NCBI GenBank assembly: GCA_049968235.1
Contig: JBMFRC010000002.1
Coordinates: forward strand, 160,001 to 224,000
DNA: 64,000 nucleotides
Direction: 5' to 3'
Source: Candidatus Hydrogenedens sp.
GTDB lineage: Bacteria; Hydrogenedentota; Hydrogenedentia; Hydrogenedentales; Hydrogenedentaceae
Part shown: positions 4,005 to 25,892 of the stretch, in pieces
Position numbering within the stretch: the first letter of the stretch is position 1
Layout of the letters: each line of letters starts with the position of its first letter
Position numbers and translations under genes: made by a program
The notes under the pieces: generated by a model
Told to the model about the DNA's origin: nothing
Database searches by the model: none
The model's input: only the letters and a program-made list of their open reading frames with translations

Positions 4005-4078
4005 TGGGCCCTGCAGGACTCGAACCTGCGACCAAGTGATTATGAGTCACCTGCTCTGACCTACTGAGCTAAGGGCCC
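4005..4078 (-). tRNA. tRNA-Met (anticodon CAT), elongator-type (or tRNA-Ile2/lysidine)
   Basis: The reverse complement folds as a cloverleaf with a 7-bp acceptor stem (GGGCCCT/AGGGCCC), D arm, anticodon loop CTCATAA and a GTTCGAGTC T-loop. The G1-C72 pair argues against an initiator tRNA. CCA is not encoded. Confidence 0.85.
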
Positions 4079-9938: not shown

Positions 9939-10120
9939 ATCTTATCTCCTTATTCTTTTATTAAGACGCAATTAATATTACCTTAATAAACACTTTATTT
10001 GTCAATATCCCATTTCCAAATATAGAGTATTCTAATATCATAATCATAAAATTTGATATAATTAGACCTTCTTTATTATCCCTCAATGAAAAATTAAACA
10101 GTTTTTTGGGGAGTATTATT

Positions 10121-10963
10121 ATGTCAGAACATCAGAATTTTTTGCCCGGAACTGAAATAGAAATTCTTAATCCGAATATCGAGTTAGGGAAAATTAAACA
10201 TATCCTTTTTGATTTTGATGGGACAATTAGTTTACTTCGGGAAGGTTGGCAAAATATTATGGGACCCATGTGTGTTGAAATGATTTGTGGAGGACATAAA
10301 CCCACTCCAGAAATTGAGAAAGAAGTGGCAGATATGATTGATGAAACTACAGGAATTCAAACCATTTTCCAGATGCAGAGATTGGTAGAAATGGTTAAAG
10401 CACATGGCTTGGTCCCAGAAGATAAGATTTTAGATGAGTGGGGCTATAAAGCCATTTACAATGAACGATTGCTTATGCCCGTTCGGGAACGAATCCAAAA
10501 ATTGAAAAATGGGAAGGTAACATTAGAACAAATGACCGTTCGAAAAGTGTTTTGTTTTTTAGAAGAATTAAAGAAAAGAAATGTTACAATGTATGTATTC
10601 AGTGGCACAGACAGAGAAGATGTTCAGCATGAGGCAAGTGTTTTAGGTGCAGATAAATATTTTGCAGAAATATGGGGAGCCTTACCCAGTATTGAGGAAT
10701 ATTCGAAAGAAAAAGTAATTCGCGAGATTATTTCAACCCATAATTTGCATGGACCGGAAGTTATGGCTGTAGGGGATGGACCTGTAGAATTAAGAAATGT
10801 CAAAGAACAGGGAGGGATTGCTTTAGGCGTGGCTTCGGATGAGAAAAAAGGTTACGGTTGGGATATGCATAAGAGAAAAAGATTATTGCGGGCAGGTGCT
10901 GATATCCTTATTCCTGATTTCAGTGAATATGATAGACTTATAAAATATTTGTTTTGTGAGTAA
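10121..10963 (+). CDS. HAD superfamily hydrolase
   Basis: Motif I FDFDGT near the N-terminus and a C-terminal GDGxxD motif (VGDGPVE). A GGGGAG Shine-Dalgarno precedes the ATG at 10121. The track start at 10106 is TTG. Confidence 0.7.
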   Translation: MSEHQNFLPGTEIEILNPNIELGKIKHILFDFDGTISLLREGWQNIMGPMCVEMICGGHKPTPEIEKEVADMIDETTGIQTIFQMQRLVEMVKAHGLVPEDKILDEWGYKAIYNERLLMPVRERIQKLKNGKVTLEQMTVRKVFCFLEELKKRNVTMYVFSGTDREDVQHEASVLGADKYFAEIWGALPSIEEYSKEKVIREIISTHNLHGPEVMAVGDGPVELRNVKEQGGIALGVASDEKKGYGWDMHKRKRLLRAGADILIPDFSEYDRLIKYLFCE

Positions 10964-13750: not shown

Positions 13751-13830
13751 TATAATTGACTCCCGAATGAAAAAATATTTACTATATTTTATCATTAAAT
13801 ATGAACAAATTGTAAACGAAAGGAATAGTT

Positions 13831-15021
13831 ATGTGGAATATTATATTTACACTGATATTGTCTTGTTCCACTCTCATTATAAGTCAGGTCAGTTTTTCTC
13901 AAGAAAATCCTTGTCTCAAAGAGGTTAATGACCTACCCCCTTTTAACGGAATTCCCAATCTATTCCAGTTTTGTGATGGAACCCCTGTGAAAACAATTCA
14001 GGATTGGGGAAAACGCAGAAAGGAATTGATGGATATTCTCGTGTTTTATGAATATGGACACTTACCCCCACCGGCAAAGATAAAAAAATCGGAGTTGATT
14101 GTTGAAGAAAAATTTTATAATGACAAAGGAATATATAGAGAATATAATGTTTATTATGGTCCACCCGATTTTAAGTTGGATGTTATGATGTTTTTGCCTA
14201 TTTCTGCACGTGAGAAACCCTGTCCTGTTATTCTATTCATACCTAAGTTCTGGAAAGAAAATGATGATAATAAAGAGATTGCTATCAAATGTATAGACCG
14301 TGGCTATGCTCTTTGTCTTTATGATAAAAGTGTGCTGGATGATGATAGTGGAAATAGAGACCAGATGATATACAAACTCTATCCTGCTTGTGATTGGGGT
14401 TCGTTAGGTGTTTGGGGGTGGGGTGCATTACGCGTCCTCGATTTTCTTGAAACGATTCCTGAAGTAAACACGAAACAACTAACATTAACAGGGCATTCGC
14501 GTAGAGGTAAAGCATCCCTGTGGGCGAGTGCTAATGATGAACGAATACCGTTAGTAATACCTCAATCCAGCGGAACAGGTGGTTGCGGTTCCTATCGAAT
14601 TGTAGGAAAGGGCTCAGAAACATTAAAAATTATTACAACAGAGGTTGCTCCTTATTGGTTTGTACCCCGATTAAAGGATTTTATTGGTAAAGAAGACCGT
14701 TTGCCTTTCGACCAGCATTTTTTGAAAGCGTTGATTGCTCCACGCGGACAGTTATCCCGCGAATCTTTAGGTGATTTATGGGCAAACCCCATGGGAACGC
14801 AGGTGATGCACGAATGTACCATTCCGGTATATAAATTCTTAGGTGTGCCTGAAAATATCGGCATACACTTTAGAGAAGGTGAACACGCACTACAACCTTC
14901 AGATTGGGATGTTGTTCTTGATTTTTCGGATTATTTCTTCTTTAAAAAGTCTCCACCCGCAGGACTTAATGTTTTACCCTTTAAAGACACTCCGAAACCA
15001 TCATGGGCTATTTCTAATTAA
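13831..15021 (+). CDS. Carbohydrate esterase family 15 (4-O-methyl-glucuronoyl methylesterase)-like, secreted
   Basis: Signal peptide and a G-x-S-R-x-G nucleophile motif (LTGHSRRGKASLWA), as in bacterial CE15 enzymes. Size is about 400 aa. Confidence 0.65.
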   Translation: MWNIIFTLILSCSTLIISQVSFSQENPCLKEVNDLPPFNGIPNLFQFCDGTPVKTIQDWGKRRKELMDILVFYEYGHLPPPAKIKKSELIVEEKFYNDKGIYREYNVYYGPPDFKLDVMMFLPISAREKPCPVILFIPKFWKENDDNKEIAIKCIDRGYALCLYDKSVLDDDSGNRDQMIYKLYPACDWGSLGVWGWGALRVLDFLETIPEVNTKQLTLTGHSRRGKASLWASANDERIPLVIPQSSGTGGCGSYRIVGKGSETLKIITTEVAPYWFVPRLKDFIGKEDRLPFDQHFLKALIAPRGQLSRESLGDLWANPMGTQVMHECTIPVYKFLGVPENIGIHFREGEHALQPSDWDVVLDFSDYFFFKKSPPAGLNVLPFKDTPKPSWAISN

Positions 15022-15100
15022 ACCGAACCAATAGGATATTTTCAACAATATTTAACATAGAAAAAGAACCAAATAAATATTATCTTATTAAGATAGCAAA

Positions 15101-15493
15101 ATGAAACGATTTGGTGTTTCCCTAAAAAAAGAGCAAGAACTTATCCAATGGATGGAACGATTAGAAATCAAAGAAGATGATTTAGAGGAACAATTCATCT
15201 CCTCTCGAGGACCCGGTGGACAAAATGTAAACCACACATCTACAGGTGTCTATATAAGACATATTCCTTCCAGTATTGAAGTTAAAATAGATACCTCTCG
15301 TTCTCAATCATTAAATCGTTTCCTTGCCCGACGAAGACTTTGTGAATTGTTAGAATACCAACGATATGGGAAAGAATCATCCCTTATTAAGAAAATAAAT
15401 AAAGCAAAGAAACAAAAACAAAGAAGGAATAGACGCTCAAAGAAAAAATACCTTAAAACAGAAACCCCAGAAATAACAAATTCAAATCATTAA
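15101..15493 (+). CDS. arfB: Alternative ribosome-rescue factor ArfB (peptidyl-tRNA hydrolase, GGQ domain)
   Basis: GGQ motif (GPGGQNVN) in a ~130-aa protein with a Lys/Arg-rich C-terminal tail. Confidence 0.75.
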   Translation: MKRFGVSLKKEQELIQWMERLEIKEDDLEEQFISSRGPGGQNVNHTSTGVYIRHIPSSIEVKIDTSRSQSLNRFLARRRLCELLEYQRYGKESSLIKKINKAKKQKQRRNRRSKKKYLKTETPEITNSNH

Positions 15494-15520
15494 GGAAATA
15501 AATCGCTAAATAAAAATTCT

Positions 15521-15548
15521 TATCAACGCTTGATATTTTTGTTTTTTA
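15521..15548 (+). terminator. Weak candidate intrinsic terminator downstream of arfB
   Basis: Short AT-rich hairpin (TATCAA-CGC-TTGATA) followed by ATTTTTGTTTTTT. Confidence 0.25.
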
Positions 15549-15854
15549 TATATTTTCCACTACAAAACAATATAAACAAACCACAATAAAATATTTAAAG
15601 ATATAGGTAAAAAGAACCTGTGTTGGTTTTTCATTTTATAGCAAAGAAATTTTCTGTTTCTCTAAATCTTTTAATAGCAAATTACTACCCCGTAATGAAA
15701 ATATAAAGATGATGAACTTTTATTCATCTGAATATTTACATAACATTAGATACAATTTGTCAAAGCGATGAGATTTTAAAAAGGTCAATGAGTTGTATTT
15801 TTGTTAAAATATGGACGTATTTTTTAAGATATAGTGAAAGAAAAGGAAGTTACT

Positions 15855-16997
15855 ATGAATTCAAATGTAAGAGAGTTTATTCAACCTTTTGAGAAAGTCC
15901 ACGAAGATTTATATTTTTTTGCTAAAAAGGCAAAACAGGACGGCGAGAAAGTAGCAGGCTTTTTATGCACTTATTCTCCGCAGGAATTGTTTCACGCAGG
16001 AGGGTACTTTCCTGTTCGCATAATAGGTAAAGAAGGTGGTACCCCATTAGCAGACCAATGGTTACAACCGTATGCATGCAGTTTCGCTAAAGGCGTACTT
16101 AATTTAGGTTTAACAGGCGACTTCTCTTTTCTAAATCTGGTAATATTTAGTCATACATGTGATACAATGCAAAATCTGGCAGAAGTATGGAGAAGACGCG
16201 TAGAGGGAATTCCGATTATTGTGGTTTCCACTCCTAATTTGAATGCGGGAGAGATTGCTCTTACTTATTTAAAGCGTGAATTAACACGAGTAAAAGAGAA
16301 AACAGAAAAAATTTCAGGAAGTAAAATAACTGATGAAAAACTTTTAGAAAGTATAAATCTCTACGAACAACACAGAAACAATATAAATCGTTTGTATCAG
16401 TTAAGACAGTTAAACCCTTCTTTAATAACAGGAACGGAAATGTTTACAGTTATCCTTTCTTCTTTTTTGATGAAGAAGGAAGAACACAATAAATTGTTAG
16501 AAGATTTGATTAAAGAATTGGAAAAGTTATCCCCTCAAGAGTTAAAAAAACCACGCATTTTGGTAGGAGGTAGTATTTGTCAGGCACAAGGTTTTATCCA
16601 ATCTATCGAAACTATAGGTGTTGTAGTTTCTGATGATGATTTATGTATGGGTTCGAGGTCTTATGTGCTTCCGCATGTTTCTCAAAAAGAACCCATTGAA
16701 ATGTTAGCGCAGATGTATCTCTCCCGAATTCCCTGTCCTGCATTTCATAAACCGGGTTATGACCCTGCTGAGATCTATATTGACAAGGTGAAAAAAGGTC
16801 ATATTGATGGTGTAATATTCCTTCAAACGAAATTCTGTGACCCTTATGGATTTAACTATCCGTATATTCGTAAAAGATTGGAACAGGAAGGAATTCCCAG
16901 CCTTCTTTTAGAAGTAGAACAAAATCAGCCTGTTCCGGAAGCGTTCCGCACACGGGTTGAAGCATTTGTAGAAACATTAAGTAGAAACATTAAATAG
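15855..16997 (+). CDS. 2-hydroxyacyl-CoA dehydratase / benzoyl-CoA reductase family subunit (HgdB/BcrB-like)
   Basis: CoA-substrate-specific enzyme family composition (FLCTYSPQELFHAGG, C-rich HTCD region). ATG at 15855 with an AAAGGAAG Shine-Dalgarno; the track start at 15834 is GTG. Confidence 0.7.
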   Translation: MNSNVREFIQPFEKVHEDLYFFAKKAKQDGEKVAGFLCTYSPQELFHAGGYFPVRIIGKEGGTPLADQWLQPYACSFAKGVLNLGLTGDFSFLNLVIFSHTCDTMQNLAEVWRRRVEGIPIIVVSTPNLNAGEIALTYLKRELTRVKEKTEKISGSKITDEKLLESINLYEQHRNNINRLYQLRQLNPSLITGTEMFTVILSSFLMKKEEHNKLLEDLIKELEKLSPQELKKPRILVGGSICQAQGFIQSIETIGVVVSDDDLCMGSRSYVLPHVSQKEPIEMLAQMYLSRIPCPAFHKPGYDPAEIYIDKVKKGHIDGVIFLQTKFCDPYGFNYPYIRKRLEQEGIPSLLLEVEQNQPVPEAFRTRVEAFVETLSRNIK

Positions 16998-17014
16998 ATA
17001 ATGAGTTCTGATAT

Positions 17015-17839
17015 ATGAGCGAATATTTTGTAATTGGGCTTGATATAGGTTCTGCAACGGCAAAAGCGGTGCTCGTTGATAATCAGGGAAAAATCTGTGC
17101 TTATACAGTTCGTCCTACGGGAGGAAGATTGCTTCAATCTGCTGATGATGTAAAAAGAGAAGTGTTATCTCAGGTTGGTGCCACAGAAGAGTTGATAAAG
17201 GCTATAATTACCACGGGTTATGGCAGAGATATTGTTCAAAATAAAACAAAAAGTTTAACAGAAATAACCTGTCATGCCAAAGGTGCGTATATAACAAATC
17301 CCAAAATACGATTCGTAATTGACATAGGAGGGCAGGATTCAAAAGCAATCTTACTTGAACCTGATGGACAGGTAGGTCGATTTGAAATGAACGATAAATG
17401 CGCAGCGGGAACGGGGCGCTTTTTAGAGGTAATGGCACGGACACTCGGAATTCACCTGGATGAAATGGGAGATATGGCAGTTCATTCAAAAATATGTTCA
17501 AAAATTTCCTCTACATGTACAGTTTTTGCAGAAAGTGAAGTAATCTCATTACTGGCTCAGGGAGAAGAGATACCGTCTGTTGTTTCGGGTTTATGTCGCG
17601 CAATTGCGGAGCGCATATATGGATTGGCATCGCGTGTGGGGATTATCGCACCGATAATGATGACTGGAGGGGTTGCAAAAAATAAGGGTGTTGTAAGTTG
17701 GTTGTCAAAAATATTAAAACAAGAAGTAATTATACCTGAAGAACCGCAAATCATCGGTGCTTTAGGTGCGAGCATGATTGGTCTGGAATGGACCCAAAAA
17801 AATAATGAAATCATGAATAAAATAACACAAAACATATAA
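17015..17839 (+). CDS. CoA-substrate-specific enzyme activase (BadF/BadG/BcrA/BcrD/HgdC ATPase, 'archerase')
   Basis: N-terminal LGIDIGSATAKAVL, an ASKH-fold ATPase motif. Size is ~270 aa, as for HgdC. Confidence 0.8.
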   Translation: MSEYFVIGLDIGSATAKAVLVDNQGKICAYTVRPTGGRLLQSADDVKREVLSQVGATEELIKAIITTGYGRDIVQNKTKSLTEITCHAKGAYITNPKIRFVIDIGGQDSKAILLEPDGQVGRFEMNDKCAAGTGRFLEVMARTLGIHLDEMGDMAVHSKICSKISSTCTVFAESEVISLLAQGEEIPSVVSGLCRAIAERIYGLASRVGIIAPIMMTGGVAKNKGVVSWLSKILKQEVIIPEEPQIIGALGASMIGLEWTQKNNEIMNKITQNI

Positions 17840-17858
17840 AGAAGGAATTGGAGATATT

Positions 17859-19100
17859 ATGAGTCAGCGTGTACCTATTCATTCCACAGCAAAGATGAAA
17901 GAGTTAATGGGTTTTTACTATATGATGGCAAAATCTGCAGAGAATGACCCTAACCAGAAAATTGCCTGGATTACCAGCGGTGGACCTGTAGAAATTTTAC
18001 ATGCAGGTGGGGTTATTCCTATCTATCCTGAAAATGTCGCTGCTATGGCGGGTACACTGAAAATCTCAGATGAAATTTGTGCGATAGCAGAAGAACAGGG
18101 CTTCTCCCGCGATTTATGTTCTTATGCACGGACAGATATCGGTTCTGCCCTTTCTGGAAAAGGTCCTATTATGGGCACTGCCAGTCCAAAACCAGATTTT
18201 TTAGTCTGTTGTAATAATATTTGCGGTACGGTAACAAAATGGTATGAGGAATTACAACGAATATTTAATGTCCCATTGATTTTCATTGATGCACCATTTC
18301 AATATGGGATAAAAGATAGACCTGAAGCGATAGATTATATGGAAGCACAATTAAGGAAAATGATAGACCAGGTTGGTGAAATTACGGGGAATCCTATATC
18401 ATGGGATAAGTTTATGGAAACACTGGACCTTGCAGACCGGGCAGTAAAATTATGGCGGGAGATTCAGGATTTATTACAGCATAAGCCTGCCCCAATGAAT
18501 TCTTTTGATACTTTTATTCATCTGGCTCCTATTGTAACCTTGCGCGGCACACAAGGTTGTATCGAATATTATGAAACATTAAAAGCGGAAATGTTAGAGC
18601 GAATAAATCAGGGTATCGGAACATTAGAGAAAGAAGAATATCGGCTGGGTTGGGATAATCTGGCAATATGGTATAAGATAAAATTCCTATCAGAACGTTT
18701 TTCTCAGCATAATGCAGCATTGGTTGTCTCCACATATACACGAAGTTTCTGTTATCAGGCAGAAGACAGAGATATTTCCAATCCCCTTAGGGCAATGTCT
18801 GCAGATTATCTGGCAGGTTATATTAATCATGGATTGGATTTCCGCGAACGGGAACTTTATCAGATGGTAAAGGATTTCAGTTTGGATGGATTGGTAATGC
18901 ACTCCAACCGTTCCTGTCGTGCATATTCTTTCGGACAATATGAACTCGCTCGTACCATGGAAGATAAATATGGCGTTCCTGTTCTTTTAATCGAAGCGGA
19001 CCAGAATGATACTCGTATGTGGAGTGATGAGCAGGTCGGAAATCGTATTGACGCATTTATGGAACGTGTTGCCAGCAAAAAGAATAAGAATATTGCATAA
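17859..19100 (+). CDS. 2-hydroxyacyl-CoA dehydratase / benzoyl-CoA reductase family subunit (HgdA/BcrC-like)
   Basis: Paralogous to the upstream subunit (ITSGGPVEILHAGG; LVCCNNICG cysteines). GGAG Shine-Dalgarno before the ATG. Confidence 0.7.
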   Translation: MSQRVPIHSTAKMKELMGFYYMMAKSAENDPNQKIAWITSGGPVEILHAGGVIPIYPENVAAMAGTLKISDEICAIAEEQGFSRDLCSYARTDIGSALSGKGPIMGTASPKPDFLVCCNNICGTVTKWYEELQRIFNVPLIFIDAPFQYGIKDRPEAIDYMEAQLRKMIDQVGEITGNPISWDKFMETLDLADRAVKLWREIQDLLQHKPAPMNSFDTFIHLAPIVTLRGTQGCIEYYETLKAEMLERINQGIGTLEKEEYRLGWDNLAIWYKIKFLSERFSQHNAALVVSTYTRSFCYQAEDRDISNPLRAMSADYLAGYINHGLDFRERELYQMVKDFSLDGLVMHSNRSCRAYSFGQYELARTMEDKYGVPVLLIEADQNDTRMWSDEQVGNRIDAFMERVASKKNKNIA

Positions 19101-19146
19101 TCAAAGTACTTTAAGCAAGTTTTCAGATGGTTTTCGATTTGAATAA

Positions 19147-20433
19147 CTAGGATAGGGTTCTTGTCCGTAAAATATCCCAGTAGGCTCCCCGGGCACCATT
19201 TTTTATGGCATTGATAAGATAATCATGATTACAGTAAGAATAACTACCTTCTTCAGTAGAAGGAAGAGAAAGAAAAACAGAGGATTGGTCTTTGACAATT
19301 TTTCGGAGATAATCAAAAAAATCCTTATCTAATTTATCAGAAAGATAATAAGTAGGAAACAGCAAATTTTTATTTTCTTCAATAGGTATCCCATATAAAA
19401 ACTTGTTTAAGTTAATACCTTTCTGATGTAGGGATAGTACATTTTTCCCTAAGGTAGTGCATGGATAAAGGCGGACACCAAAGGAGATACCAAGTGCATC
19501 AGGTTTAAGTTTCATTGCATTCTCAATAGTGAATAAGGCAGTTTCTCTATTTTCCCTGGGAGAACCTAATAATAAATCAAACATGATAGCAATGTGTGTT
19601 TTCCGTAGTATCCTGATTAGTTGCTGAATATCTTCGTATTTATGGGGCTTATGAAGTAACCGTAATATATCATTATGAAGGGAATCCACACCGAAGTTTA
19701 TACCAACGCAACCGGCTTCTTCCATTAAGAACGCCAATTCTTCTGTGAAAGGCACAGGGGAACAATAGGTATACCATTTAATTTTTTTGTTAATTCCGCT
19801 TTTGATAAGTTCATTACATATTTTAAGAGCATGTTCTATGTGTATGTTAAACTCGCTGTCACACCAATGGAAAACATTAATACCTTTATCTACTAATTGT
19901 TCAATTTCAAATACAACAGCACTAGGATTTCGAAGTTCTATAGCGCTATGTCCCAATGAACTTTCAACACAATAAATACATTGCTGTGAACAACCTCGTT
20001 TCGTCTCAATACCAATTTGTCCACCTTCAACAAAATATTTGTTAATATCTGCAAAATTTCTATGAGGTTGAAATGAAGTATATCTATTCGTGAGATTTCC
20101 CCTGGGTGGATTCAGGTGAATGTTACCGGTACTTTCCCTATAAATACATCCTGGAAATTCCTTATAGGTGTTTCGGTCCATAACTTCAATAAAATCTGTA
20201 ATACAATTTACACCATTTCCAATAAAGCCAAAATCTGCACCGGTGTAGTTTAGAATTTCACAGGGTGCTATGGAGAAACCTGCACCACCTAAAAAAATAG
20301 GGGCATTTGATAATTGTCTACACAATTGGATAACTGTATTTACAAAATCAACATAGAAGATTTGACTTCCCATCATGGCTTCGTCAATATTACGGAGAGA
20401 GATACCAATACAATCGGGATTAGAAATAGACAA
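19147..20433 (-). CDS. B12-binding domain radical SAM protein; true N-terminus probably extends to about 20607
   Basis: Radical SAM CxxxCxxC (GCSQQCIYC). A B12-binding domain lies upstream (CIGISL..IFLGGAGFS) and continues in frame above the TTG at 20433 (TIALVNPN..PPISPVGLEYIAEVLSESGHDI). There is no ATG/GTG/TTG between that region and the upstream stop. Confidence 0.7.
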   Translation of the reverse strand: MSISNPDCIGISLRNIDEAMMGSQIFYVDFVNTVIQLCRQLSNAPIFLGGAGFSIAPCEILNYTGADFGFIGNGVNCITDFIEVMDRNTYKEFPGCIYRESTGNIHLNPPRGNLTNRYTSFQPHRNFADINKYFVEGGQIGIETKRGCSQQCIYCVESSLGHSAIELRNPSAVVFEIEQLVDKGINVFHWCDSEFNIHIEHALKICNELIKSGINKKIKWYTYCSPVPFTEELAFLMEEAGCVGINFGVDSLHNDILRLLHKPHKYEDIQQLIRILRKTHIAIMFDLLLGSPRENRETALFTIENAMKLKPDALGISFGVRLYPCTTLGKNVLSLHQKGINLNKFLYGIPIEENKNLLFPTYYLSDKLDKDFFDYLRKIVKDQSSVFLSLPSTEEGSYSYCNHDYLINAIKNGARGAYWDILRTRTLS

Positions 20434-20618
20434 ATAATTCTTTAAAGTTTCTTCCCAGTTATCCGAAAAACATAAATCTATCCAGATAATATCATGTCCT
20501 GATTCTGATAATACTTCTGCAATATATTCAAGACCTACCGGAGAGATAGGTGGCTTGAGTTGATTTGGATTGACAAGTGCTATTGTTTTTGAGGATGTAT
20601 TGGATATGAGCCTTACCT

Positions 20619-21884
20619 CTAAATATATTGTTCAATGTTCCAGGGTTCACGGTAGGTTCTTTTTATCCACTTTGTTGCTTCGGGGTCATCCTTAATGGTC
20701 AAATTTTGTGGGTCAAATACCACAGGACGCGAAAGCATAGTACTGATATTACAAAGATGACATAAGACCGCAGAAATGTGTCCTTCTTCTGCAGGGGCAT
20801 TGGCTTTTTCTTCACCGAGAATGGCTTTGGCAAAATTGATAGCATGGGGTATTTCAATATCGCTACCGGGATAAGTTTTAGGTTCTTTTGGCTTGCCATT
20901 CGGGAATACCTTCCAATCATCCCGTGTAACAACCATAGTACCTTTTTCACCATGAAACTCCGCAAAAGAATCCATCCCATATTCTGACCATAAACGAAGT
21001 TCCCAGACTACGGTCAATTCTGGATATTCAAGAATAGCCGTTTGTGTATCTGGCCATTCTTTAATATCTTTGGTAACAAATTGTCCACCCGTGGCAAAAA
21101 CACGAGAAGGATAGGCAATATTCAAAAACCAACGAACAATATCCAACCAATGAGCTGCCCAGTTCCCTGTATCTCCTGTTCCATAGTCCAGCATAAAGTG
21201 CCAGTTATAGTGAACACGGTATTTATTATAGGGCTTCATGGGAGCAGGTCCTGTCCACATGTCATAATCTAAATGCTTGGGTGGGTCGCTATCAGGAACC
21301 TTCGGAAGAGGTTCCCTCCAGTGGATTGTTCCTGCACGGGCAAACGCAATTTTGCCTAACTCGCCAGATTGTAGAAAAGAACGGGCTTCTTGGAAATGTT
21401 TTCCACTCCGTTGTTGTGAACCGACAACAACTACTAACTTTGGATTTTTCTTCATCGCCTGGAGCACTGCATAACCATCATAAATATTGTAAGAGAACGG
21501 TTTTTCTACATACACATGTTTTCCAGCAGAGACCGCCATTGCCGATATTAAAGAGTGCCAATGGTCAGGTGTAGCAACAACTACAGCATCTATATCTTTA
21601 TCATCAAGGACACGGCGAAAGTCTTTTTCCAAAACGGACACATTAATATTTTTTGAGGCAAGTTTTTTTTGTGCCTCGTTTAGTTCTTTTTCATCACAAT
21701 CACACAAAGTTTTAATTTCAAAATAGCCGGATTTCATAAGGTTTTCTGCTACTTGTGAACCTCTTCTTCGACAACCAATAATGCCTACCCGCATCTTTGG
21801 AGATTGTGCCTTCGCTTTTTTAGTTAAAGTGGCAGATGCCATCGCTACTGCTGATGTCGCCATAAATTGCCTGCGATTTAACAT
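20619..21884 (-). CDS. Gfo/Idh/MocA family oxidoreductase with twin-arginine (TAT) signal
   Basis: MLNRRQFMATSAVAMASA TAT signal and a Rossmann motif (VGIIGCRRRG). ATG at 21884 with an AGGAG Shine-Dalgarno at 9 nt; the track start at 21905 is TTG. Confidence 0.85.
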   Translation of the reverse strand: MLNRRQFMATSAVAMASATLTKKAKAQSPKMRVGIIGCRRRGSQVAENLMKSGYFEIKTLCDCDEKELNEAQKKLASKNINVSVLEKDFRRVLDDKDIDAVVVATPDHWHSLISAMAVSAGKHVYVEKPFSYNIYDGYAVLQAMKKNPKLVVVVGSQQRSGKHFQEARSFLQSGELGKIAFARAGTIHWREPLPKVPDSDPPKHLDYDMWTGPAPMKPYNKYRVHYNWHFMLDYGTGDTGNWAAHWLDIVRWFLNIAYPSRVFATGGQFVTKDIKEWPDTQTAILEYPELTVVWELRLWSEYGMDSFAEFHGEKGTMVVTRDDWKVFPNGKPKEPKTYPGSDIEIPHAINFAKAILGEEKANAPAEEGHISAVLCHLCNISTMLSRPVVFDPQNLTIKDDPEATKWIKRTYREPWNIEQYI

Positions 21885-22021
21885 ATTAAATTTCTCCTTC
21901 TTCAAATGACACTTAAACCATCTAAATAAAGAAGGGCTTAGTTATATTTTTGTAAAAAATATTTATTATTTTTAAGTTCCTTTTTAGTTACATTATACTA
22001 AATATTTCTAAAAAGTTTTTA

Positions 22022-22876
22022 TTAAGACAATATTGATTTTAATTCTTGAGCAACTTTTTTTGTTTGTTCTAAATTTGGCATACCCTGGTCGCCAACAATA
22101 ACCTCTGCGGTTAAATAATAATTATAACCAACATATTTCAATGCTTGTAGCAATCCTTCCCAATTCATATCTCCTACAAACAAACTGGTCGTAAAATTGT
22201 CTAATGTTCCACCACCATTATTTCGTTTGAAATTTTTTATATGGACACGGGCTATTCGTTGTCCTAAAATTTCAGCCCAATGTTCAGGATAACCATTGAT
22301 TAAGCAATTGCCTGCATCAAAATAGGCTTTGACCCATGAAGATTGGAACATATCTACAAATTGGGCAAACTCAAAGGGACCCGTAAGAAATTTACTCCAA
22401 ACATTTTCAAGAGCAATAATGACCCGATTTCTTTCTGCAATAGGTATTAATTGATAAATAGACTCCTGTGCCCATTTCCAGACTTCTTTCGCCGGAACAA
22501 TAGGACGATTTGAGTCAAAACATACATCAACAGTTCCCGGCAAAACAAGAACTGCCCCAGCACCTAACTGACTAGCCGTTTCAATATATGTTTTTGTAAA
22601 ATCAACAGATTGTTTACGTTCCTCTACATTGGGACTTCCAAGGGAAGACCCCCAATAATAACCCGTAGCTAACGAAGGTATTTCTAATCCCTCTGACTCC
22701 ACCAATCTCCGAATACATTTTATTTCCTCCTCTGTAGCAGTAGGTGACAATTCACCTGCTCCATAACATAATTCAATGCCATCCCAGCCCATCTCTTTAA
22801 CCTGTTTTATCACACTTTCAATCTTTACTTCACCTGCAAACCCACACACCATCCATCCATTCAACGCCATTTTCAT
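22022..22876 (-). CDS. Sugar phosphate isomerase/epimerase (xylose-isomerase-like TIM barrel)
   Basis: About 280 aa with AP-endonuclease-2/xylose-isomerase-like composition. It is a typical neighbour of Gfo/Idh/MocA genes. ATG with an AAGGA Shine-Dalgarno. Confidence 0.75.
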   Translation of the reverse strand: MKMALNGWMVCGFAGEVKIESVIKQVKEMGWDGIELCYGAGELSPTATEEEIKCIRRLVESEGLEIPSLATGYYWGSSLGSPNVEERKQSVDFTKTYIETASQLGAGAVLVLPGTVDVCFDSNRPIVPAKEVWKWAQESIYQLIPIAERNRVIIALENVWSKFLTGPFEFAQFVDMFQSSWVKAYFDAGNCLINGYPEHWAEILGQRIARVHIKNFKRNNGGGTLDNFTTSLFVGDMNWEGLLQALKYVGYNYYLTAEVIVGDQGMPNLEQTKKVAQELKSILS

Positions 22877-23776
22877 AAATACTATCCTTTATTTTTTATT
22901 TTTCCCATATGTTATTCACAACAGTTCGACATACTATATAGTAAGTATTTAAAAACAAAAAATAGAATAAAACAGATATTGTTAGGAAAGCAAGAAGGAA
23001 ATTACATATTCCCCAAAAAATGTTAGATGAATGCTAAAACTACAGAACAAACATGAACGAAATAAAGAAATATAAAAATTACAACGCAATTATCTCGATT
23101 GTAATAAATCCAATATAGTTTATAGATTAAACACTTTTTATCTGTGTTTTTTTACACACAGAAAGTAAGTGCAGTCATACTCCCAAAAATGATTTTTATC
23201 CCCAAAAATATATGCAATAACCGTAGTCTAATTATACATAATGATATGATATAAAAATTCCCATCGTTAGGCTAAGAAACCTATATTTTATAGGGACAAA
23301 ATATTTTTCGCACCAATGTAATACCAACACTCTTTTTTGTAAATGAATATACAGTGCATAATGAACACAGAAATGCATGTGCTATTTCAAAGATAAAAAA
23401 AAGAGTTAAATAGATTAAGTCAGTATATAAGTATTATGTTTGCAAAACTTGTATATTTCTAAATTTTTATTAAAAGTAAAAAAGATAAACAAAAATGTCT
23501 TTTTTTTATGGTAACAGAGAAAATCTTGTTTTTTAGCCAACATTATTGTGACAGTTATATTTTTGTATATTAAAGATCCAACCATTATTTTTATTACTAA
23601 AAAATATATGCTTTGATTTCTATATAAAAATTGAAATCAAATATAACCATATTATTGATTTTATAATTTTTTGATTTCGGTTTTTCCTTATGTTATAATA
23701 ATACACAAAACCGCACGGAGGTTAATTTAATTCTCAAAATTTTTTAACAGCTTTTTAAGCAAAGGAGTATGATTGT
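22877..23776. other. About 900-bp AT-rich non-coding leader upstream of the tandem DUF1559 genes
   Basis: No ORF of 60 aa or more on either strand. It has very low GC and contains poly-A/T tracts. Confidence 0.4.
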
Positions 23777-24768
23777 ATGCGTAAAAAAGTTTCACATTAA
23801 TTGAATTACTAGTCGTTATAGCCATTATTGGTATTCTTGCTGCGATACTACTTCCCGCTCTGGCACGGGCTCGTGAAGCAGCAAGACGTTCCAGTTGCCA
23901 GAATAACCTAAAACAATGGGGTTTGGTATTCAAAATGTACTCTAATGAAGCCAAAGGCGAACGCTATCCCCCGTTACAAACTTACAACCCGATAGAAAAT
24001 GATGCTGATATCGCTGCGGGTCCACAAGTAAGCACTCTATATCCCGAATACCTTACAGACCCCTATATTATCATTTGTCCTTCTGACCCCAGCGCATCAA
24101 ATATGAGAACTAAACTTGAAGAAAATGATGGAAACCTGGTTAAACTTTCAAAAGATATTGACGAAAGTTATGCTTACTTTGGTTGGGTTTTTGATAGACT
24201 AAAGCCTTCCACACCTGCCAATCAATTTCTAATTGTGACTATATTAACTTCATTATTAGGTGGTTCATTTGATACCAGCCAGCCCGTTCCCATCCAATTA
24301 GGAGCAGCATTAGATGGATTATATCACGCAAATATACCATTGGTAACTGCCTATGTGAACGGTTCTGACCCAACTGCTTTAATGAAAGTGATGGACCAGG
24401 ATTCTCACTTACCATCCAGCTGGGCAGGTTATGGGAATGGTGGTGGAAATACCGTATACCGTTTGCGTGAAGGTATTGAACGCTTCCTCATTACCGATAT
24501 TAATAACCCAGCAGCAAGTAACAATGCACAAAGTTCTGTATGGATTATGATGGATACATTCTCCGCAGGTGGAGTTGCCGGTGATTTGTTTAATCATATT
24601 CCGGGTGGTTGTAATGTACTTTATATGGATGGACATGTTGAATTTATAAGATATATAGCCACAAATAATCTTGTTGCCGACCCATCTGGCACAAGTGTTA
24701 ATGGAACTGAGCCTATTATCGCAACAGTGGCAAATATGGTATCTGCAATTGCGGCTGGCTCACAATAA
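23777..24768 (+). pseudogene. DUF1559 / prepilin-type (type II secretion pseudopilin-like) protein, N-terminal frameshift
   Basis: ATG at 23777 with an AGGAG Shine-Dalgarno; MRKKVSH then hits a stop. The +2 frame continues as [43 protein letters not shown], matching the downstream paralog. This is consistent with a 1-nt deletion near 23790. Confidence 0.6.
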
Positions 24769-24908: not shown

Positions 24909-25892
24909 ATGAAAAAAAAGGGTTTTACACTCATCGAATTGCTGGTGGTCATCGCAATCATCGGCATTCTTGCGGCAATTTTATTGCCAGCACTTGCTCG
25001 TGCTCGTGAAGCGGCCCGTCGTTCCAGTTGTGCTAATAATCTTAAACAATGGGGACTGGTCTTTAAAATGTATGCAAATGAAAGTAAAGGGGAACGTTTT
25101 CCCCCAATGCAAACTTATAACCCGATAACACAATCAAGGGCTTTTGCTGTAGGACCACAAGTGGACCTTATTTATCCTGAATATCTAACAGACCCATATA
25201 TAATGATATGTCCTTCGGATGCAGGTGCAAGTGAACATAGGAAAAGATTAGAGGAACACAATGGAAATTTACTTGAGATATCAGAAGATATTGATGCAAG
25301 TTATGCTTATTTTGGATGGCTGTTTGACCACTTAAAACCCATCGCTTCATTAACTTATTTTAACATAACTTTGTTACTATTAGCTGGGGGAGCAAACTTT
25401 GACCCATTAGTCCCAGCACCTATTCAATTTTTCGGAGCTTTAGATGCTTTAGTTGGAGAGTTCCCTAATGATGTTGCAAGATATATTAATAATTCTGACC
25501 CTACTGCACTAATGAAAGTTATGGACCATGACTCGGATTTAAGAAAAGCATCTCCCATTTGTATCGGTTATGGTAATGGAGGAGGAAATATTGTATATCG
25601 TTTAAGAGAAGGGATTGAAAGATTTTTACTCACTGATGTCAATAATCCGGCTTCGAGTAACAGTGCCCAGAGCAGTGTATGGATTATGCTGGATACATTA
25701 GCCACTCCTAACGCTAGAGAACCTCTTTTTAACCATATACCCGGAGGTTGTAATGTTCTTTATATGGACGGACATGTAGAATTCATAAGATATACATCCG
25801 ACCCTGACCTTTATGACCAGGATGTTCCTGGAACAGAACCTGTTGTTTCTGTTGTAGCAAATCTTGTAACAGCCCTAGCTGGCTCTCTCTAA
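24909..25892 (+). CDS. DUF1559 / prepilin-type N-terminal cleavage-methylation domain protein (PVC-group pseudopilin-like)
   Basis: [27 protein letters not shown] class III signal, and the conserved C-terminal [17 protein letters not shown]. Confidence 0.85.

What the first reader, a model, noticed from the sequence alone, without database searches (positions are those of the whole stretch)
15855..20631. Three-gene 2-hydroxyacyl-CoA dehydratase/BCR-family radical enzyme cluster convergent with a B12-radical SAM gene
The locus encodes two paralogous HgdA/HgdB(BcrB/C)-like subunits flanking a BadF/BcrA/HgdC-type ATPase activator. This is the complete kit for an ATP-driven ketyl-radical dehydratase or reductase. 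The organism's other content is sugar-polymer degradation (CE15, GH28, Gfo/Idh/MocA), so the substrate cannot be read from context. A B12-binding radical SAM gene lies immediately downstream in convergent orientation, and an orphan glycyl-radical-enzyme activase sits at 2965-3969. Together these suggest an uncharacterised anaerobic radical-chemistry module in a PVC-like genome.
Basis: partly seen in the sequence, partly recalled or inferred. Interest (0 to 1): 0.6.

Follow-up and report, generated by a model that had tools for sequence, protein, structure and literature searches.

The report
ATP-driven iron-sulfur radical enzyme operon
Three tightly packed genes in a probable Hydrogenedentota genome encode a complete but uncharacterised member of the oxygen-sensitive iron-sulfur enzyme family that dehydrates 2-hydroxyacyl-CoAs or reduces benzoyl-CoA; by annotation it is ordinary, but its helper subunit keeps all six cysteines that bind a rare double-cubane iron-sulfur cluster in the two solved relatives that carry it.

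Summary
Genes at 15855-16997, 17015-17839 and 17859-19100 (+ strand) encode a HadC/BcrC-like subunit, a HgdC/HadI-type ATPase activator and a HadB/BcrB-like catalytic subunit. All cluster-binding cysteines and ATPase motifs are present.

The wider "radical-chemistry module" is not supported. The convergent B12-radical SAM gene overlaps and travels with a Gfo/Idh/MocA plus TIM-barrel operon. The GRE-activase-like gene lies 12 kb away behind dnaG and rpoD. The organism is probably Hydrogenedentota (FCB group), not PVC.

The trio belongs to a large uncharacterised clade about 33% identical to C. difficile HadBC. Distant members sit beside acyl-CoA ligases, an AcrC-like acyl-CoA dehydrogenase, GlcD/CCG 2-hydroxyacid-dehydrogenase-like genes and LarA. 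I therefore favour a 2-hydroxyacyl-CoA dehydratase acting on an unknown substrate.

One feature is unexpected. The beta subunit keeps all six cysteines, and three arginines, that bind the [8Fe-9S] double cubane in BzdN. HadC/FldC-type and MbdN subunits lack three of these cysteines or fewer. The six are invariant in all 74 full-length clade partners and in 96 of 144 nearest family representatives.

Verdict: a new member of a known family, of moderate interest.

The parts
15843..15849 (+). Shine-Dalgarno-like aaggaag, 5 nt upstream of ATG 15855
   Evidence: Read directly from the sequence. It supports ATG 15855 as the start rather than the GTG at 15834 that the ORF tool lists. NCBI assemblies with identical DNA aa.
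15855..16997 (+). Beta-like (HadC/BcrC/BzdN-type) subunit, 380 aa. It is the predicted electron-receiving and electron-storing subunit.
   Evidence: Pfam HGD-D E 1.5e-90. NCBIfam scores, all below cutoff: HadC 246, double_cubane 187, BzdN 170 bits. PDB sequence matches: HadC 3o3m_B at 2e-58 and BzdN 8s02_B at 1.2e-48. AlphaFold2 model pLDDT 94.5, with TM 0.94 to HadC and 0.92 to BzdN.
15966..16838 (+). Span holding the six Cys codons: 15966, 16077, 16158, 16644, 16734 and 16836. These are C45/C82/C109/C271/C301/C335 in 387-aa ORF numbering, or C38/75/102/264/294/328 counted from ATG 15855. They align with the BzdN [8Fe-9S] ligands C36/73/100/263/293/327.
   Evidence: Alignments. Ligand assignment is from PMC11971306. 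Cys spacing is 37/27/162/30/34, against 37/27/163/30/34 in BzdN. Second-sphere residues R62, R275 and R298 correspond to BzdN Arg53/267/290.
17015..17839 (+). Archerase-type ATPase activator (HgdC/HadI/BcrA-D family), 274 aa. It is a single gene, so presumably a homodimer.
   Evidence: PF01869 E 2.5e-61. TIGR00241 257.7 bits, above its cutoff of 125.4. PDB matches: HadI 4eht 2e-61, MbdQ 5e-55, HgdC 1hux 1.4e-52. Motifs: DIGS 10-13, DIGGQD 103-108, GGVAKN 218-223.
17399..17518 (+). Span from the C129 codon (17399-17401, in DKCAAGTG) to the C168 codon (17516-17518, in STCTVF). These are the two cysteines per monomer that bridge the [4Fe-4S] cluster.
   Evidence: Both motifs align residue for residue with HadI.
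17859..19100 (+). Alpha-like (HadB/BcrB/BzdO-type) catalytic subunit, 413 aa
   Evidence: Pfam HGD-D E 1.2e-80. NCBIfam HadB 270 bits, below its cutoff of 750; BcrB 163; BzdO 130. PDB matches: HadB 4.3e-61, MbdO 3.6e-36, BzdO 3.8e-34. AlphaFold2 model pLDDT 92.3, with TM 0.91/0.94 to HadB.
18117..18917 (+). Span holding the three Cys codons of the catalytic [4Fe-4S] cluster: C87 at 18117, C122 at 18222 (in the CCNNIC motif shared with HadB) and C353 at 18915.
   Evidence: They align with BzdO Cys95/128/380 and are invariant in alignment A1. The BzdO thioester-binding residues Tyr97 and Tyr298 correspond to Y89 and Y293, also invariant.

Best explanation
The three genes form one operon for an oxygen-sensitive, ATP-primed iron-sulfur radical enzyme of the BCR/HAD family. 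It most probably acts on an acyl-CoA thioester as a 2-hydroxyacyl-CoA dehydratase, or catalyses a closely related ketyl-radical alpha-elimination.

Proposed mechanism (inferred from homologues; nothing was measured here):
1. Reduced ferredoxin or flavodoxin loads one electron onto the [4Fe-4S] cluster that bridges the activator homodimer through C129 and C168.
2. ATP binding and hydrolysis drives that electron into the cluster of the beta subunit.
3. The electron passes to the alpha-subunit [4Fe-4S], held by C87, C122 and C353 with a fourth iron left free.
4. The thioester carbonyl, positioned by Y89 and Y293, takes the electron to form a ketyl radical anion.
5. The 2-hydroxyl group leaves, the beta-proton is removed, and enoyl-CoA forms while the electron returns for further turnovers.

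This enzyme differs from the clostridial paradigm (HadBC, FldBC) in one respect. Its beta subunit is predicted to hold a six-cysteine [8Fe-9S] double cubane, as in BzdN and DCCP, rather than a three-cysteine [4Fe-4S]-SH site.

The substrate is unknown. Lactoyl-CoA (acrylate route to propionate) is only a lead.
For: Family membership and intact sites:
- HMM and PDB sequence matches.
- Confident models superpose on HadB and HadC at TM 0.91-0.94.
- All cluster cysteines and ATPase motifs are present.
- Gaps of 17 and 19 nt indicate an operon.

Thioester substrate:
- The BzdO residues that hydrogen-bond the thioester oxygen (Tyr97, Tyr298) correspond to Y89 and Y293. Both are invariant over 34 clade members at 46-97% identity.
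- An AMP-dependent acyl-CoA ligase lies next to the alpha/beta pair in 19 related loci.

Dehydratase rather than reductase:
- Alpha scores highest against HadB: 210 bits, versus 128 for MbdO and 121 for BzdO.
- Alpha has HadB's length (413 vs 408 aa) and its CCNNICxxVxKWY motif.
- By sequence alignment alpha lacks BzdO His131 (Val) and Trp46 (Gly).
- There is one ATPase gene, as in HADs and DCCP-R. The solved class I BCR relatives have two different ATPase subunits (MbdP and MbdQ).
- About half of related loci carry no adjacent activator, which fits a catalytic role for it.
- Neighbours in related loci fit 2-hydroxyacid to enoyl-CoA to acyl-CoA chemistry: an FAD-binding GlcD-like oxidase in 9 loci with CCG/FeS proteins in 7-8; an acyl-CoA dehydrogenase whose best NCBIfam hit is acryloyl-CoA reductase AcrC (512 bits, cutoff 640); and a LarA-type 2-hydroxyacid racemase (447.5 bits, cutoff 460) 2.8 kb from an alpha that is 72% identical to the window's.

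Double cubane in beta:
- All six BzdN ligand positions are Cys, with almost identical spacing.
- They are invariant in 74 of 74 full-length partner proteins, which are only 28-80% identical to the window.
- The BzdN Arg53 position is Arg in 96 of 99 six-Cys sequences but in only 10 of 50 others.
Against: - No activity, metal content or expression data exist for any member of this clade.
- No conserved neighbour was found in the window's own Hydrogenedentota/Nitrospirales subclade. The pathway context is borrowed from relatives whose alpha is only 45-50% identical.
- The classical HAD partners, a CoA-transferase and an NAD-dependent (R)-2-hydroxyacid dehydrogenase, are absent from the 64-kb window.
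- In BzdNO the double cubane is thought to accumulate two or more electrons for a net reduction. That would suit a reductase better.
- The alpha phylogeny against the four available references is unresolved.
- The sequence alignment puts Val at the BzdO His131 position in both HadB and the window. The structural paper reports alanine in HadB there, so single-residue equivalences are approximate.
- HgdB and LcdB could not be obtained for comparison.
Confidence: 0.55

Rival explanations
1. It is an ATP-consuming reductase of the class I benzoyl-CoA-reductase type. The enzyme would deliver two low-potential electrons per turnover to an acyl-CoA, for example an aromatic, dienoyl or enoyl thioester, or carry out a reductive dehydroxylation. 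The double cubane would serve as the two-electron store.
For: - Beta has the complete BzdN [8Fe-9S] ligand set and its arginine environment. In BzdNO that cluster is proposed to store at least two electrons for reduction.
- The predicted cofactor set, a double cubane plus a three-Cys [4Fe-4S] with an open site, equals that of BzdNO.
- The thioester tyrosines are shared with BzdO.
- In the distant clade the gene order beta-alpha-ATPase matches bcrCBAD and bzdNOPQ (order recalled from the literature).
- JGI annotates several relatives as bcr-type subunits.
Against: - NCBIfam BCR equivalogs score far below cutoff: 163-170 bits against 421-487, and 130 against 449.
- There is only one ATPase gene.
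- Alpha lacks BzdO His131 and Trp46 and is about 30 residues shorter than BzdO and MbdO.
- Beta groups with HadC rather than BzdN in 197 of 200 bootstrap quartets.
- MbdN, from a true reductase, has only three of the six Cys, so the double cubane is not a marker of reductases.
- No dienoyl-CoA hydratase or ring hydrolase appears among recurrent neighbours. The neighbours that do recur suit 2-hydroxyacid chemistry.
Confidence: 0.25
2. It is a DCCP/YjiM-like ATP-dependent reductase acting on a small or non-CoA substrate at the double-cubane cluster.
For: - Beta has the six-Cys signature and scores 187 bits on NF040772 double_cubane.
- The window's own subclade has no CoA-activating gene nearby.
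Against: - DCCPs are homodimers of one six/seven-Cys subunit. Here the partner alpha has only the three-Cys HadB/BzdO-type site and conserves the thioester-binding tyrosines.
- NF040772 scores below its cutoff of 350.
- The position of the seventh DCCP Cys is Ile64 (sequence inspection using the motif quoted).
- DCCP is the most distant of the solved relatives: 96 bits and TM 0.87.
Confidence: 0.05
3. The trio, the convergent B12-radical SAM gene and the GRE-activase-like gene together form one anaerobic radical-chemistry module acting on a common substrate.
For: - The genes lie close together in the window: 46 nt separate the convergent stop codons.
- The radical SAM block is also found within a few kb downstream of the trio in the two closest relatives, L006 and L007.
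Against: - The radical SAM ORF overlaps the stop codon of the Gfo/Idh/MocA gene. It stays attached to that gene and the TIM-barrel gene, while one or two unrelated genes are inserted between the block and the trio in L006 and L007.
- It is absent near the trio in all more distant loci.
- The GRE-activase-like gene is separated from the trio by housekeeping genes, and there is no GRE in the window.
Confidence: 0.05

Closest known systems
(R)-2-hydroxyisocaproyl-CoA dehydratase HadBC with activator HadI (Clostridioides difficile; PDB 3O3M/3O3N, 4EHT), and the FldBC phenyllactate dehydratase type
   Same: - It is the best sequence and fold match for all three proteins: 210, 201 and 211 bits, with TM 0.91-0.94.
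- One homodimer-type activator gene.
- Alpha has a three-Cys open-site [4Fe-4S], the CCNNIC motif and similar length.
- Beta groups with HadC rather than BzdN in 197 of 200 bootstrap quartets.
   Different: - Only 32-33% identical. NCBIfam equivalog cutoffs are missed by a wide margin: 270 vs 750 and 246 vs 700.
- Beta reads CCCCCC at the six double-cubane positions, where HadC and 115 of 116 HadC/FldC-clade proteins read PCCACC.
- Gene order is beta-activator-alpha, and there is no adjacent CoA-transferase. The clostridial order, transferase-activator-alpha-beta, is from my own knowledge.
Bzd-type class I benzoyl-CoA reductase catalytic dimer BzdNO (Aromatoleum sp. CIB; PDB 8S02; Fuchs et al. 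2025, PMC11971306)
   Same: - Same predicted cofactor layout: a six-Cys [8Fe-9S] in the N/beta-type subunit, with the same Cys spacing and the Arg53/267/290 equivalents, plus a three-Cys [4Fe-4S] with an open site in the O/alpha-type subunit.
- The thioester-binding Tyr97 and Tyr298 are conserved.
   Different: - 28-29% identity, and the equivalog cutoffs are missed.
- No His131 or Trp46 equivalents.
- One ATPase gene instead of BzdP plus BzdQ.
- Beta lies on the HadC/MbdN side of the tree.
Double-cubane cluster protein DCCP with reductase DCCP-R (Carboxydothermus hydrogenoformans; PDB 6ENO, 7YYL) and E. coli YjiLM
   Same: - The six cluster-ligand cysteines in beta.
- A single-gene archerase-type reductase (163 bits to DCCP-R).
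   Different: - DCCP is a homodimer with a double cubane in each subunit, lacks a CoA channel and has a seventh conserved Cys.
- Here the system is a heterodimer of two paralogues. Alpha has lost the distal sub-cluster ligands and keeps the thioester-binding residues.
- DCCP is the weakest of the solved matches.
Lactoyl-CoA dehydratase LcdAB/LcdC of the acrylate pathway (Anaerotignum propionicum, Megasphaera elsdenii). This comparison rests on my own knowledge; no sequence was available.
   Same: - Same three-component HAD architecture.
- Relatives of the window enzyme sit beside an AcrC-like acyl-CoA dehydrogenase (512 bits) and a LarA-type lactate racemase (447.5 bits). Both are partners of the acrylate pathway.
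   Different: - No Lcd sequence could be obtained, so neither similarity nor the Cys pattern of LcdB was tested.
- No propionate CoA-transferase, AcrC or LarA is present in the window itself.

Membership tests
BCR/HAD radical enzyme family (HGD-D subunits plus archerase) | Two paralogous HGD-D (PF06050 / IPR010327) subunits encoded together | tested here: met
   E 1.5e-90 and 1.2e-80, both above the gathering cutoff. The same pair is conserved in all related loci.
BCR/HAD radical enzyme family (HGD-D subunits plus archerase) | An ASKHA-fold ATPase with two cysteines per monomer for a dimer-bridging [4Fe-4S] cluster, plus ATP-binding motifs | tested here: met
   TIGR00241 scores 257.7 bits, above its cutoff of 125.4. 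C129 and C168 lie in DKCAAGTG and STCTVF, aligned with HadI. DIGS, DIGGQD and GGVAKN are present.
BCR/HAD radical enzyme family (HGD-D subunits plus archerase) | A catalytic subunit with three Cys ligands that leave one Fe of the [4Fe-4S] cluster free | tested here: met
   C87, C122 and C353 align with BzdO C95/128/380 and with the HadB motifs. They are invariant in A1. This is sequence evidence only; the cluster itself was not observed.
BCR/HAD radical enzyme family (HGD-D subunits plus archerase) | Fold of the two subunits | tested here: met
   AlphaFold2 pLDDT 94.5 and 92.3. TM 0.94 to HadC, 0.92 to BzdN and 0.91/0.94 to HadB.
(R)-2-hydroxyisocaproyl-CoA dehydratase HadBC (NCBIfam NF052455 / NF052456 equivalogs) | Score at or above the equivalog cutoff | tested here: not met
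   Alpha 270.3 bits against 750; beta 246.4 bits against 700.
Clostridial-type HAD (HadBC / FldBC) | Beta subunit with a three-Cys [4Fe-4S]-SH site, the distal sub-cluster ligands being lost (pattern PCCACC) | tested here: not met
   The window beta reads CCCCCC. HadC, and 115 of 116 HadC/FldC-clade hits including a C. botulinum 'phenyllactate dehydratase', read PCCACC.
Clostridial-type HAD (HadBC / FldBC) | Operon partners: a CoA-transferase and a 2-hydroxyacid dehydrogenase next to the dehydratase | tested here: not met
   None was found among the window ORFs of 150 aa or more that were scanned. No such neighbour is conserved in the close subclade either.
2-hydroxyacyl-CoA dehydratases in general | ATP- and reductant-activated syn-elimination of water from an (R)-2-hydroxyacyl-CoA, with catalytic electron recycling | not testable with these tools
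   This needs anaerobic biochemistry.
Class I benzoyl-CoA reductase (Bzd or Bcr type) | Equivalog scores for BzdN/BzdO or BcrC/BcrB | tested here: not met
   170 vs 453.8 (BzdN), 129.8 vs 448.6 (BzdO), 169.6 vs 421 (BcrC), 162.7 vs 486.6 (BcrB).
Class I benzoyl-CoA reductase (Bzd or Bcr type) | Two different ATPase subunits (BzdPQ, BcrAD, MbdPQ) | tested here: not met
   The operon has a single PF01869 gene, and no other was found among the window ORFs scanned.
Class I benzoyl-CoA reductase (Bzd type) | Six-Cys [8Fe-9S] double cubane in the N-type subunit | tested here: met
   All six positions are Cys with matching spacing, and three of the four second-sphere residues are kept. This is sequence evidence only.
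Class I benzoyl-CoA reductase (Bzd type) | Catalytic His131 and ring-stacking Trp46 in the O-type subunit | tested here: not met
   The phmmer alignment gives V125 and G42 at those positions. The alignment-level caveat is noted.
Double-cubane cluster proteins (DCCP, NF040772) | Equivalog score, and a homodimer of one subunit carrying the 7-Cys motif | tested here: not met
   187.4 and 78.7 bits against a cutoff of 350. The two subunits differ, alpha lacks the distal ligands, and the seventh-Cys position is Ile.
   161.1 bits against a cutoff of 174.35. Radical_SAM, Fer4_12 and Fer4 domains are present. No GRE is present in the window.

The most novel reading that the evidence does not exclude
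The beta subunit really binds an [8Fe-9S] double cubane. This large, mostly uncultured clade would then be the first enzymes of HAD architecture to use that cofactor: a HadB-like catalytic subunit, a single archerase, and a beta that groups with HadC. They would be a living intermediate between DCCP/BzdNO and the clostridial dehydratases. Their chemistry might then differ from simple electron-recycling dehydration, for example a net two-electron reductive removal of the 2-hydroxyl group.
Probability: 0.3. Interest if true: 0.6.

Novelty: new member of a known kind. Interest (0 to 1): 0.4.

Why it matters
The double-cubane [8Fe-9S] cluster has been seen only in DCCP, whose function is unknown, and in BzdN. 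The current view, based on HadBC alone, is that HAD-type enzymes have lost it.

This study gives a sequence-level prediction against that view. About two thirds of the nearest beta-type family representatives keep the full ligand set. That includes a clade whose beta groups with HadC and whose alpha is most similar to HadB. If the prediction is confirmed, three things follow:
- The known range of the cofactor widens.
- Enzymologists gain tractable candidates for asking what the extra cubane is for.
- The proposed evolutionary route from DCCP through BCR to HAD acquires an intermediate.

For the organism, it points to an ATP-primed radical step in acid or amino-acid fermentation in Hydrogenedentota, a phylum known mainly from MAGs. 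Without biochemistry the locus remains an ordinary 'HAD family' annotation.

Tried and rejected
1. **Conserved neighbours in the window's own subclade.** I read seven look-ups of encoding contigs and the close genome loci. Nothing recurred. URO-D genes near three loci proved to be divergent paralogues by tblastn.
2. **Riboswitch or other RNA upstream of beta.** Rfam at gathering thresholds found only a tRNA at 4005-4078.
3. **Promoter and terminator scan of 15400-19300.** There were fewer promoter-like sites than in shuffled sequence, and no terminator between the convergent genes. This was uninformative.
4. **Obtaining HgdB, LcdB and FldC sequences to test the Cys pattern.**
   - A profile of the 'PCCYCC' representatives returned only environmental proteins.
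   - A HadC-clade profile did return HadC and a C. botulinum phenyllactate-dehydratase beta.
   - HgdB and LcdB remain untested.
   - Cluster look-ups gave no useful names.
5. **Literature.**
   - No paper links Hydrogenedentes with 2-hydroxyacyl-CoA dehydratases.
   - The Hydrogenedentota genome catalogue paper mentions no such enzyme.
   - The HadBC structure paper is not held.
   - The alignment figures of Fuchs et al. are images.
   - No paper on the MbdONPQ structure is held.
6. **Alpha-subunit phylogeny against HadB, MbdO, BzdO and DCCP.** No quartet exceeded 63% bootstrap, and clade monophyly was recovered in only 28 of 200 replicates. I therefore rest 'alpha is HadB-like' on scores, length, motifs and fold, not on a tree.
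7. **The double cubane as a marker of reductases.** Rejected, because MbdN, from a true class I reductase, has only three of the six Cys.

Full report
**1. What is there**

The + strand between 15.8 and 19.1 kb carries three ORFs separated by 17 and 19 nt.
- The first ORF opens at GTG 15834. ATG 15855 follows a good ribosome-binding site (aaggaag, 15843-15849). It is also the start used in two NCBI assemblies with identical DNA (GCA_049971155.1 and GCA_049969095.1).
- Pfam assigns HGD-D (PF06050) to the first and third proteins, at E 1.5e-90 and 1.2e-80. It assigns BcrAD_BadFG (PF01869) to the middle one at E 2.5e-61.
- NCBIfam places the middle protein above the cutoff of TIGR00241, 'acyl-CoA dehydratase activase': 257.7 bits against 125.4.
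- The best solved relatives of all three are the C. difficile 2-hydroxyisocaproyl-CoA dehydratase components. HadB scores 4.3e-61, HadC 2e-58 and HadI 2e-61. The Bzd- and Mbd-type benzoyl-CoA reductase subunits come next, and then DCCP/DCCP-R.
- AlphaFold2 models built on family alignments are confident (pLDDT 94.5 and 92.3). They superpose on HadC (TM 0.94), BzdN (0.92) and HadB (0.91/0.94).
- The activator has the ASKHA motifs DIGS, DIGGQD and GGVAKN. It also has the two cluster-bridging cysteines, C129 and C168, aligned residue for residue with HadI.

**2. What does not belong to it**

*The B12-radical SAM gene.*
- The ORF tool starts the convergent gene at TTG 20433. The reading frame is open up to 20631, however, and it encodes the missing N-terminal half of the B12-binding domain.
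- The gene calls recorded with the two NCBI assemblies give 493 aa starting at 20628. That start overlaps the stop codon of the upstream Gfo/Idh/MocA gene.
- The radical SAM gene, the Gfo/Idh/MocA gene and a xylose-isomerase-like TIM-barrel gene recur as one block in the two closest relatives. Identities are 63/86/80% in L006 and 47/71/72% in L007.
- In those relatives one or two unrelated genes sit between the block and the dehydratase-type genes.
- The block is absent near all more distant orthologues.
- It is thus the last gene of a sugar-oxidoreductase operon on the other strand, not a partner of the trio.

*The GRE-activase-like gene.*
- The ORF at 2965-3969 scores just under the TIGR02494 cutoff (161 vs 174 bits).
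- It is separated from the trio by a GH141-like gene, dnaG and rpoD.
- No glycyl radical enzyme is present in the window.

*Other partners.* Pfam and NCBIfam scans covered the window's ORFs of 150 aa or more, except the short DUF1559 paralogue 23923-24768 and the antisense ORF 36350-37114. They found no CoA-transferase or ligase, acyl-CoA dehydrogenase, Etf or ferredoxin.

*The organism.*
- The closest named relatives are Candidatus Hydrogenedentota MAGs. Alpha is 90% identical in L007, and several hits at 64-68% carry that name.
- NCBI puts that phylum in the FCB group, not PVC.

**3. The family around it**

The alpha protein has 3295 database relatives at E <= 1e-10.
- Hits at 50-74% identity come from Hydrogenedentota and Nitrospirales.
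- A very large group at 45-50% identity comes from Desulfobacterales, Syntrophales, Spirochaetota, Leptospiraceae, Actinomycetota and others.
- HadB is only 33% identical to alpha, and HadC only 32% identical to beta.
- All NCBIfam equivalog cutoffs (HadB/C, BcrB/C, BzdN/O, double_cubane) are missed by a wide margin.

The trio is therefore a member of the BCR/HAD family but of no characterised subfamily.

*Close subclade.* The gene order is beta-activator-alpha, or beta-alpha with no activator nearby. Neighbours differ from locus to locus.

*Distant clade.* I clustered all ORFs of 88 loci and annotated the recurrent clusters. The order there is beta-alpha-activator. The recurrent neighbours are:

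| Neighbour | Loci | Note |
|---|---|---|
| AMP-dependent acyl-CoA ligase | 19 | |
| SDR | 12 | |
| FAD-binding GlcD-like oxidase | 9 | found with the CCG/FeS proteins below |
| IclR regulator | 9 | |
| CCG/FeS proteins | 7-8 | |
| Acetolactate-synthase-like ThDP enzyme | 7 | |
| Acyl-CoA dehydrogenase | 5 | best NCBIfam match acryloyl-CoA reductase AcrC, 512 bits (cutoff 640) |

A LarA-type nickel-dependent 2-hydroxyacid racemase (447.5 bits, cutoff 460) lies 2.8 kb from an alpha that is 72% identical to the window's (L088). A weaker LarA-like gene lies beside the pair in L081.

These partners fit the sequence 2-hydroxyacid, then 2-hydroxyacyl-CoA, then enoyl-CoA, then acyl-CoA. No dienoyl-CoA hydratase or ring hydrolase, as would follow a benzoyl-CoA reductase, appears among the recurrent clusters.

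**4. Active-site reading**

I used the BzdNO structure paper (PMC11971306) and the phmmer alignments.

*Alpha.*
- C87, C122 and C353 correspond to the three ligands of the catalytic [4Fe-4S]-OH2 cluster (BzdO C95/128/380).
- Y89 and Y293 correspond to BzdO Tyr97 and Tyr298, which hydrogen-bond the thioester oxygen.
- S40 and E58 correspond to Ser44 and, within one alignment column, Glu65.
- C87, C122, C353, Y89, Y293 and E58 are invariant over 34 clade members at 46-97% identity, and S40 is conserved in at least 90% of them. A thioester substrate is therefore likely.
- The residues specific to arene reduction are not kept. His131 aligns with V125 and Trp46 with G42.
- Alpha shares HadB's CCNNICxxVxKWY motif, which is present in 64 of 74 clade alphas.
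- Alpha also has HadB's length: 413 vs 408 aa, against 445-447 aa for MbdO and BzdO.

*Beta.*
- Every one of the six cysteines that ligate the BzdN [8Fe-9S] double cubane (C36/73/100/263/293/327) is present. In ORF numbering they are C45/82/109/271/301/335, with codons at 15966, 16077, 16158, 16644, 16734 and 16836.
- The spacing is 37/27/162/30/34, against 37/27/163/30/34 in BzdN.
- DCCP also has all six. HadC reads P-C-C-A-C-C, and MbdN (Thauera-type reductase) reads Q-C-C-F-S-C.
- The three arginines around the distal sub-cluster of BzdN (Arg53/267/290) are R62, R275 and R298 in the window. HadC has Gly, Arg and Ile at these positions.

**5. Is the six-Cys pattern constrained?**

- Among the beta partners encoded next to alpha in the related loci, all 74 full-length proteins have all six cysteines. 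They are 28-80% identical to the window.
- An exhaustive phmmer search of 1.84 billion 50%-identity representatives found 3664 family members.
- Of the 144 full-length proteins among the best 150, 96 have all six. The remainder fall mainly into a HadC-type group (PCCACC) and a PCCYCC group.
- The three proximal ligands are universal.
- The BzdN Arg53 position is Arg in 96 of 99 six-Cys sequences, against 10 of 50 others. That covariation is expected if the distal sub-cluster is real.
- A profile search around HadC returned 116 proteins, including full-length HadC and a C. botulinum 'phenyllactate dehydratase'. Of these, 115 read PCCACC.
- In bootstrap neighbour-joining on the 149-sequence alignment:
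  - the quartet (window, HadC | BzdN, DCCP) was recovered 197 times in 200;
  - the quartet (HadC, MbdN | window, BzdN) was recovered 149 times in 200;
  - the window's own six-Cys clade was recovered 172 times in 200 (first tree).

The simplest reading is this. The six-Cys state is ancestral and is shared by DCCP, BzdN and the window clade. It was lost on the branch or branches leading to HadC/FldC-type and MbdN-type subunits. The window clade is the six-Cys lineage nearest to the classical dehydratases.

This rests on distance trees and on sequence only. HgdB and LcdB could not be retrieved, so I cannot say that all characterised dehydratases lack the distal ligands.

**6. Most likely function**

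I favour an ATP-primed radical enzyme that works on an acyl-CoA and behaves as a 2-hydroxyacyl-CoA dehydratase (confidence about 0.55). The proposed mechanism is as follows:
1. Ferredoxin or flavodoxin reduces the activator's bridging cluster.
2. ATP hydrolysis injects the electron into beta.
3. The electron moves to the open-site cluster in alpha.
4. The bound thioester is reduced to a ketyl radical anion.
5. The 2-hydroxyl group is eliminated, the beta-proton is removed, and the electron returns.

What is shown here is that the genes, motifs, ligands, folds and family contexts are present. Every mechanistic step is inferred from HadBC, HgdC and BzdNO.

The main rival is a BCR-like stoichiometric reductase (about 0.25).
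- It is favoured by the predicted double cubane, which is thought to store two electrons in BzdNO.
- It is weakened by the single ATPase gene, the absence of BzdO His131 and Trp46, the HadC-side position of beta, the pathway partners listed above, and the fact that MbdN works without a double cubane.

The substrate cannot be named. The AcrC-like and LarA neighbours of relatives, together with the organism's pectin and deoxy-sugar degrading gene content (GH28, CE15, GH141-like), make lactoyl-CoA a lead worth testing and no more than that.

**7. Novelty and verdict**

By ordinary annotation this is a '2-hydroxyacyl-CoA dehydratase family' operon, one of thousands. I file it as a new member of a known kind.

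The point of interest is the predicted cofactor combination: a HadB-like catalytic subunit, a single archerase, and a beta that groups with HadC yet keeps the BzdN/DCCP double-cubane ligand set. This combination is not represented among characterised enzymes. It contradicts the generalisation, drawn from HadBC, that HAD-type enzymes have lost the double cubane. It can be tested directly by metal analysis and structure determination.

Interest is 0.4.

Noticed in passing
window 19147-20631 (-); L006 about 14902-16400; L007 about 8800-10300: The B12-radical SAM gene has no ATG, GTG or TTG before its B12-binding domain. The frame opens after TGA 20634-20632, and the recorded gene call in identical NCBI contigs starts at ATA 20628. 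An SD-like gaggtaagg is followed by another ATA at 20607. L006 shows the same arrangement of SD plus ATA, while L007 has a normal ATG. This suggests a conserved non-canonical ATA start, or translational coupling to the Gfo/Idh/MocA gene whose stop codon it overlaps.
   Followed up: partly
window 19147-22876 (-): An operon-like block is conserved in L006 and L007. It comprises a xylose-isomerase-like TIM-barrel protein, a TAT-signal Gfo/Idh/MocA oxidoreductase, and a B12-radical SAM protein. The oxidoreductase's best NCBIfam hit is the glycoside 3-dehydrogenase BT_2158 family (154 bits, below cutoff). The radical SAM protein's best partial hits are TIGR04072 'lipid biosynthesis B12/rSAM' and tryptophan 2-C-methyltransferase (about 231 bits each, below cutoff). 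A cobalamin radical SAM enzyme tied to periplasmic-type sugar oxidation genes is unusual and is not explained here.
   Followed up: partly
window 2965-3969 (+), tRNA at 4005-4078 (-): A glycyl-radical-enzyme-activase-like radical SAM protein with a two-ferredoxin insert. TIGR02494 scores 161 bits against a cutoff of 174. The next-best hits are hydroxyproline dehydratase activase and indoleacetate decarboxylase activase. No glycyl radical enzyme is present anywhere in the 64-kb window.
   Followed up: partly
window 23771-24768 (+): The first of two tandem DUF1559/prepilin-type genes appears frameshifted. An ATG CGT AAA AAA G... start is one base out of frame with the downstream N-methylation motif [14 protein letters not shown]. 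This is consistent with a 1-nt indel after an A6 run, from assembly error, a pseudogene or frameshifting. The paralogue at 24909-25892 is intact.
   Followed up: partly
window 11570-13795 (-): A single 741-aa ORF fuses an NAD-dependent epimerase/dehydratase domain to a DegT/DnrJ/EryC1 aminotransferase domain. This looks like a two-step amino-deoxy-sugar module in one polypeptide.
   Followed up: no
window 49904-52519 (-): An 871-aa fusion of a GlpA/GlpD-like glycerol-3-phosphate dehydrogenase (304 bits to PRK12266) with a YegS/diacylglycerol-kinase-family lipid kinase (TIGR00147, 154 bits, above cutoff).
   Followed up: no
L017 11215-12372; L088 14009-15280; L019, L024, L038 and others: In relatives of the trio, the alpha/beta pair sits beside three kinds of gene: an acyl-CoA dehydrogenase whose best hit is acryloyl-CoA reductase AcrC (512 bits), a LarA-type lactate/2-hydroxyacid racemase (447.5 bits), or a GlcD-like FAD oxidase with two CCG/FeS proteins. 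Together these hint at an acrylate-type route, from 2-hydroxyacid to enoyl-CoA, outside the Clostridia.
   Followed up: partly
window 39998-42207 (-): Two LptF/LptG-family permease ORFs overlap by 235 nt as listed. The GTG start of the downstream one (41317) is probably too far upstream.
   Followed up: no
PDB 9g87_B (MbdN) compared with 8s02_B (BzdN): By sequence alignment, the Thauera-type reductase subunit MbdN has only three of the six double-cubane cysteines (Q-C-C-F-S-C), while the Bzd-type BzdN has all six. The two kinds of class I benzoyl-CoA reductase would therefore differ in cluster content.
   Followed up: partly
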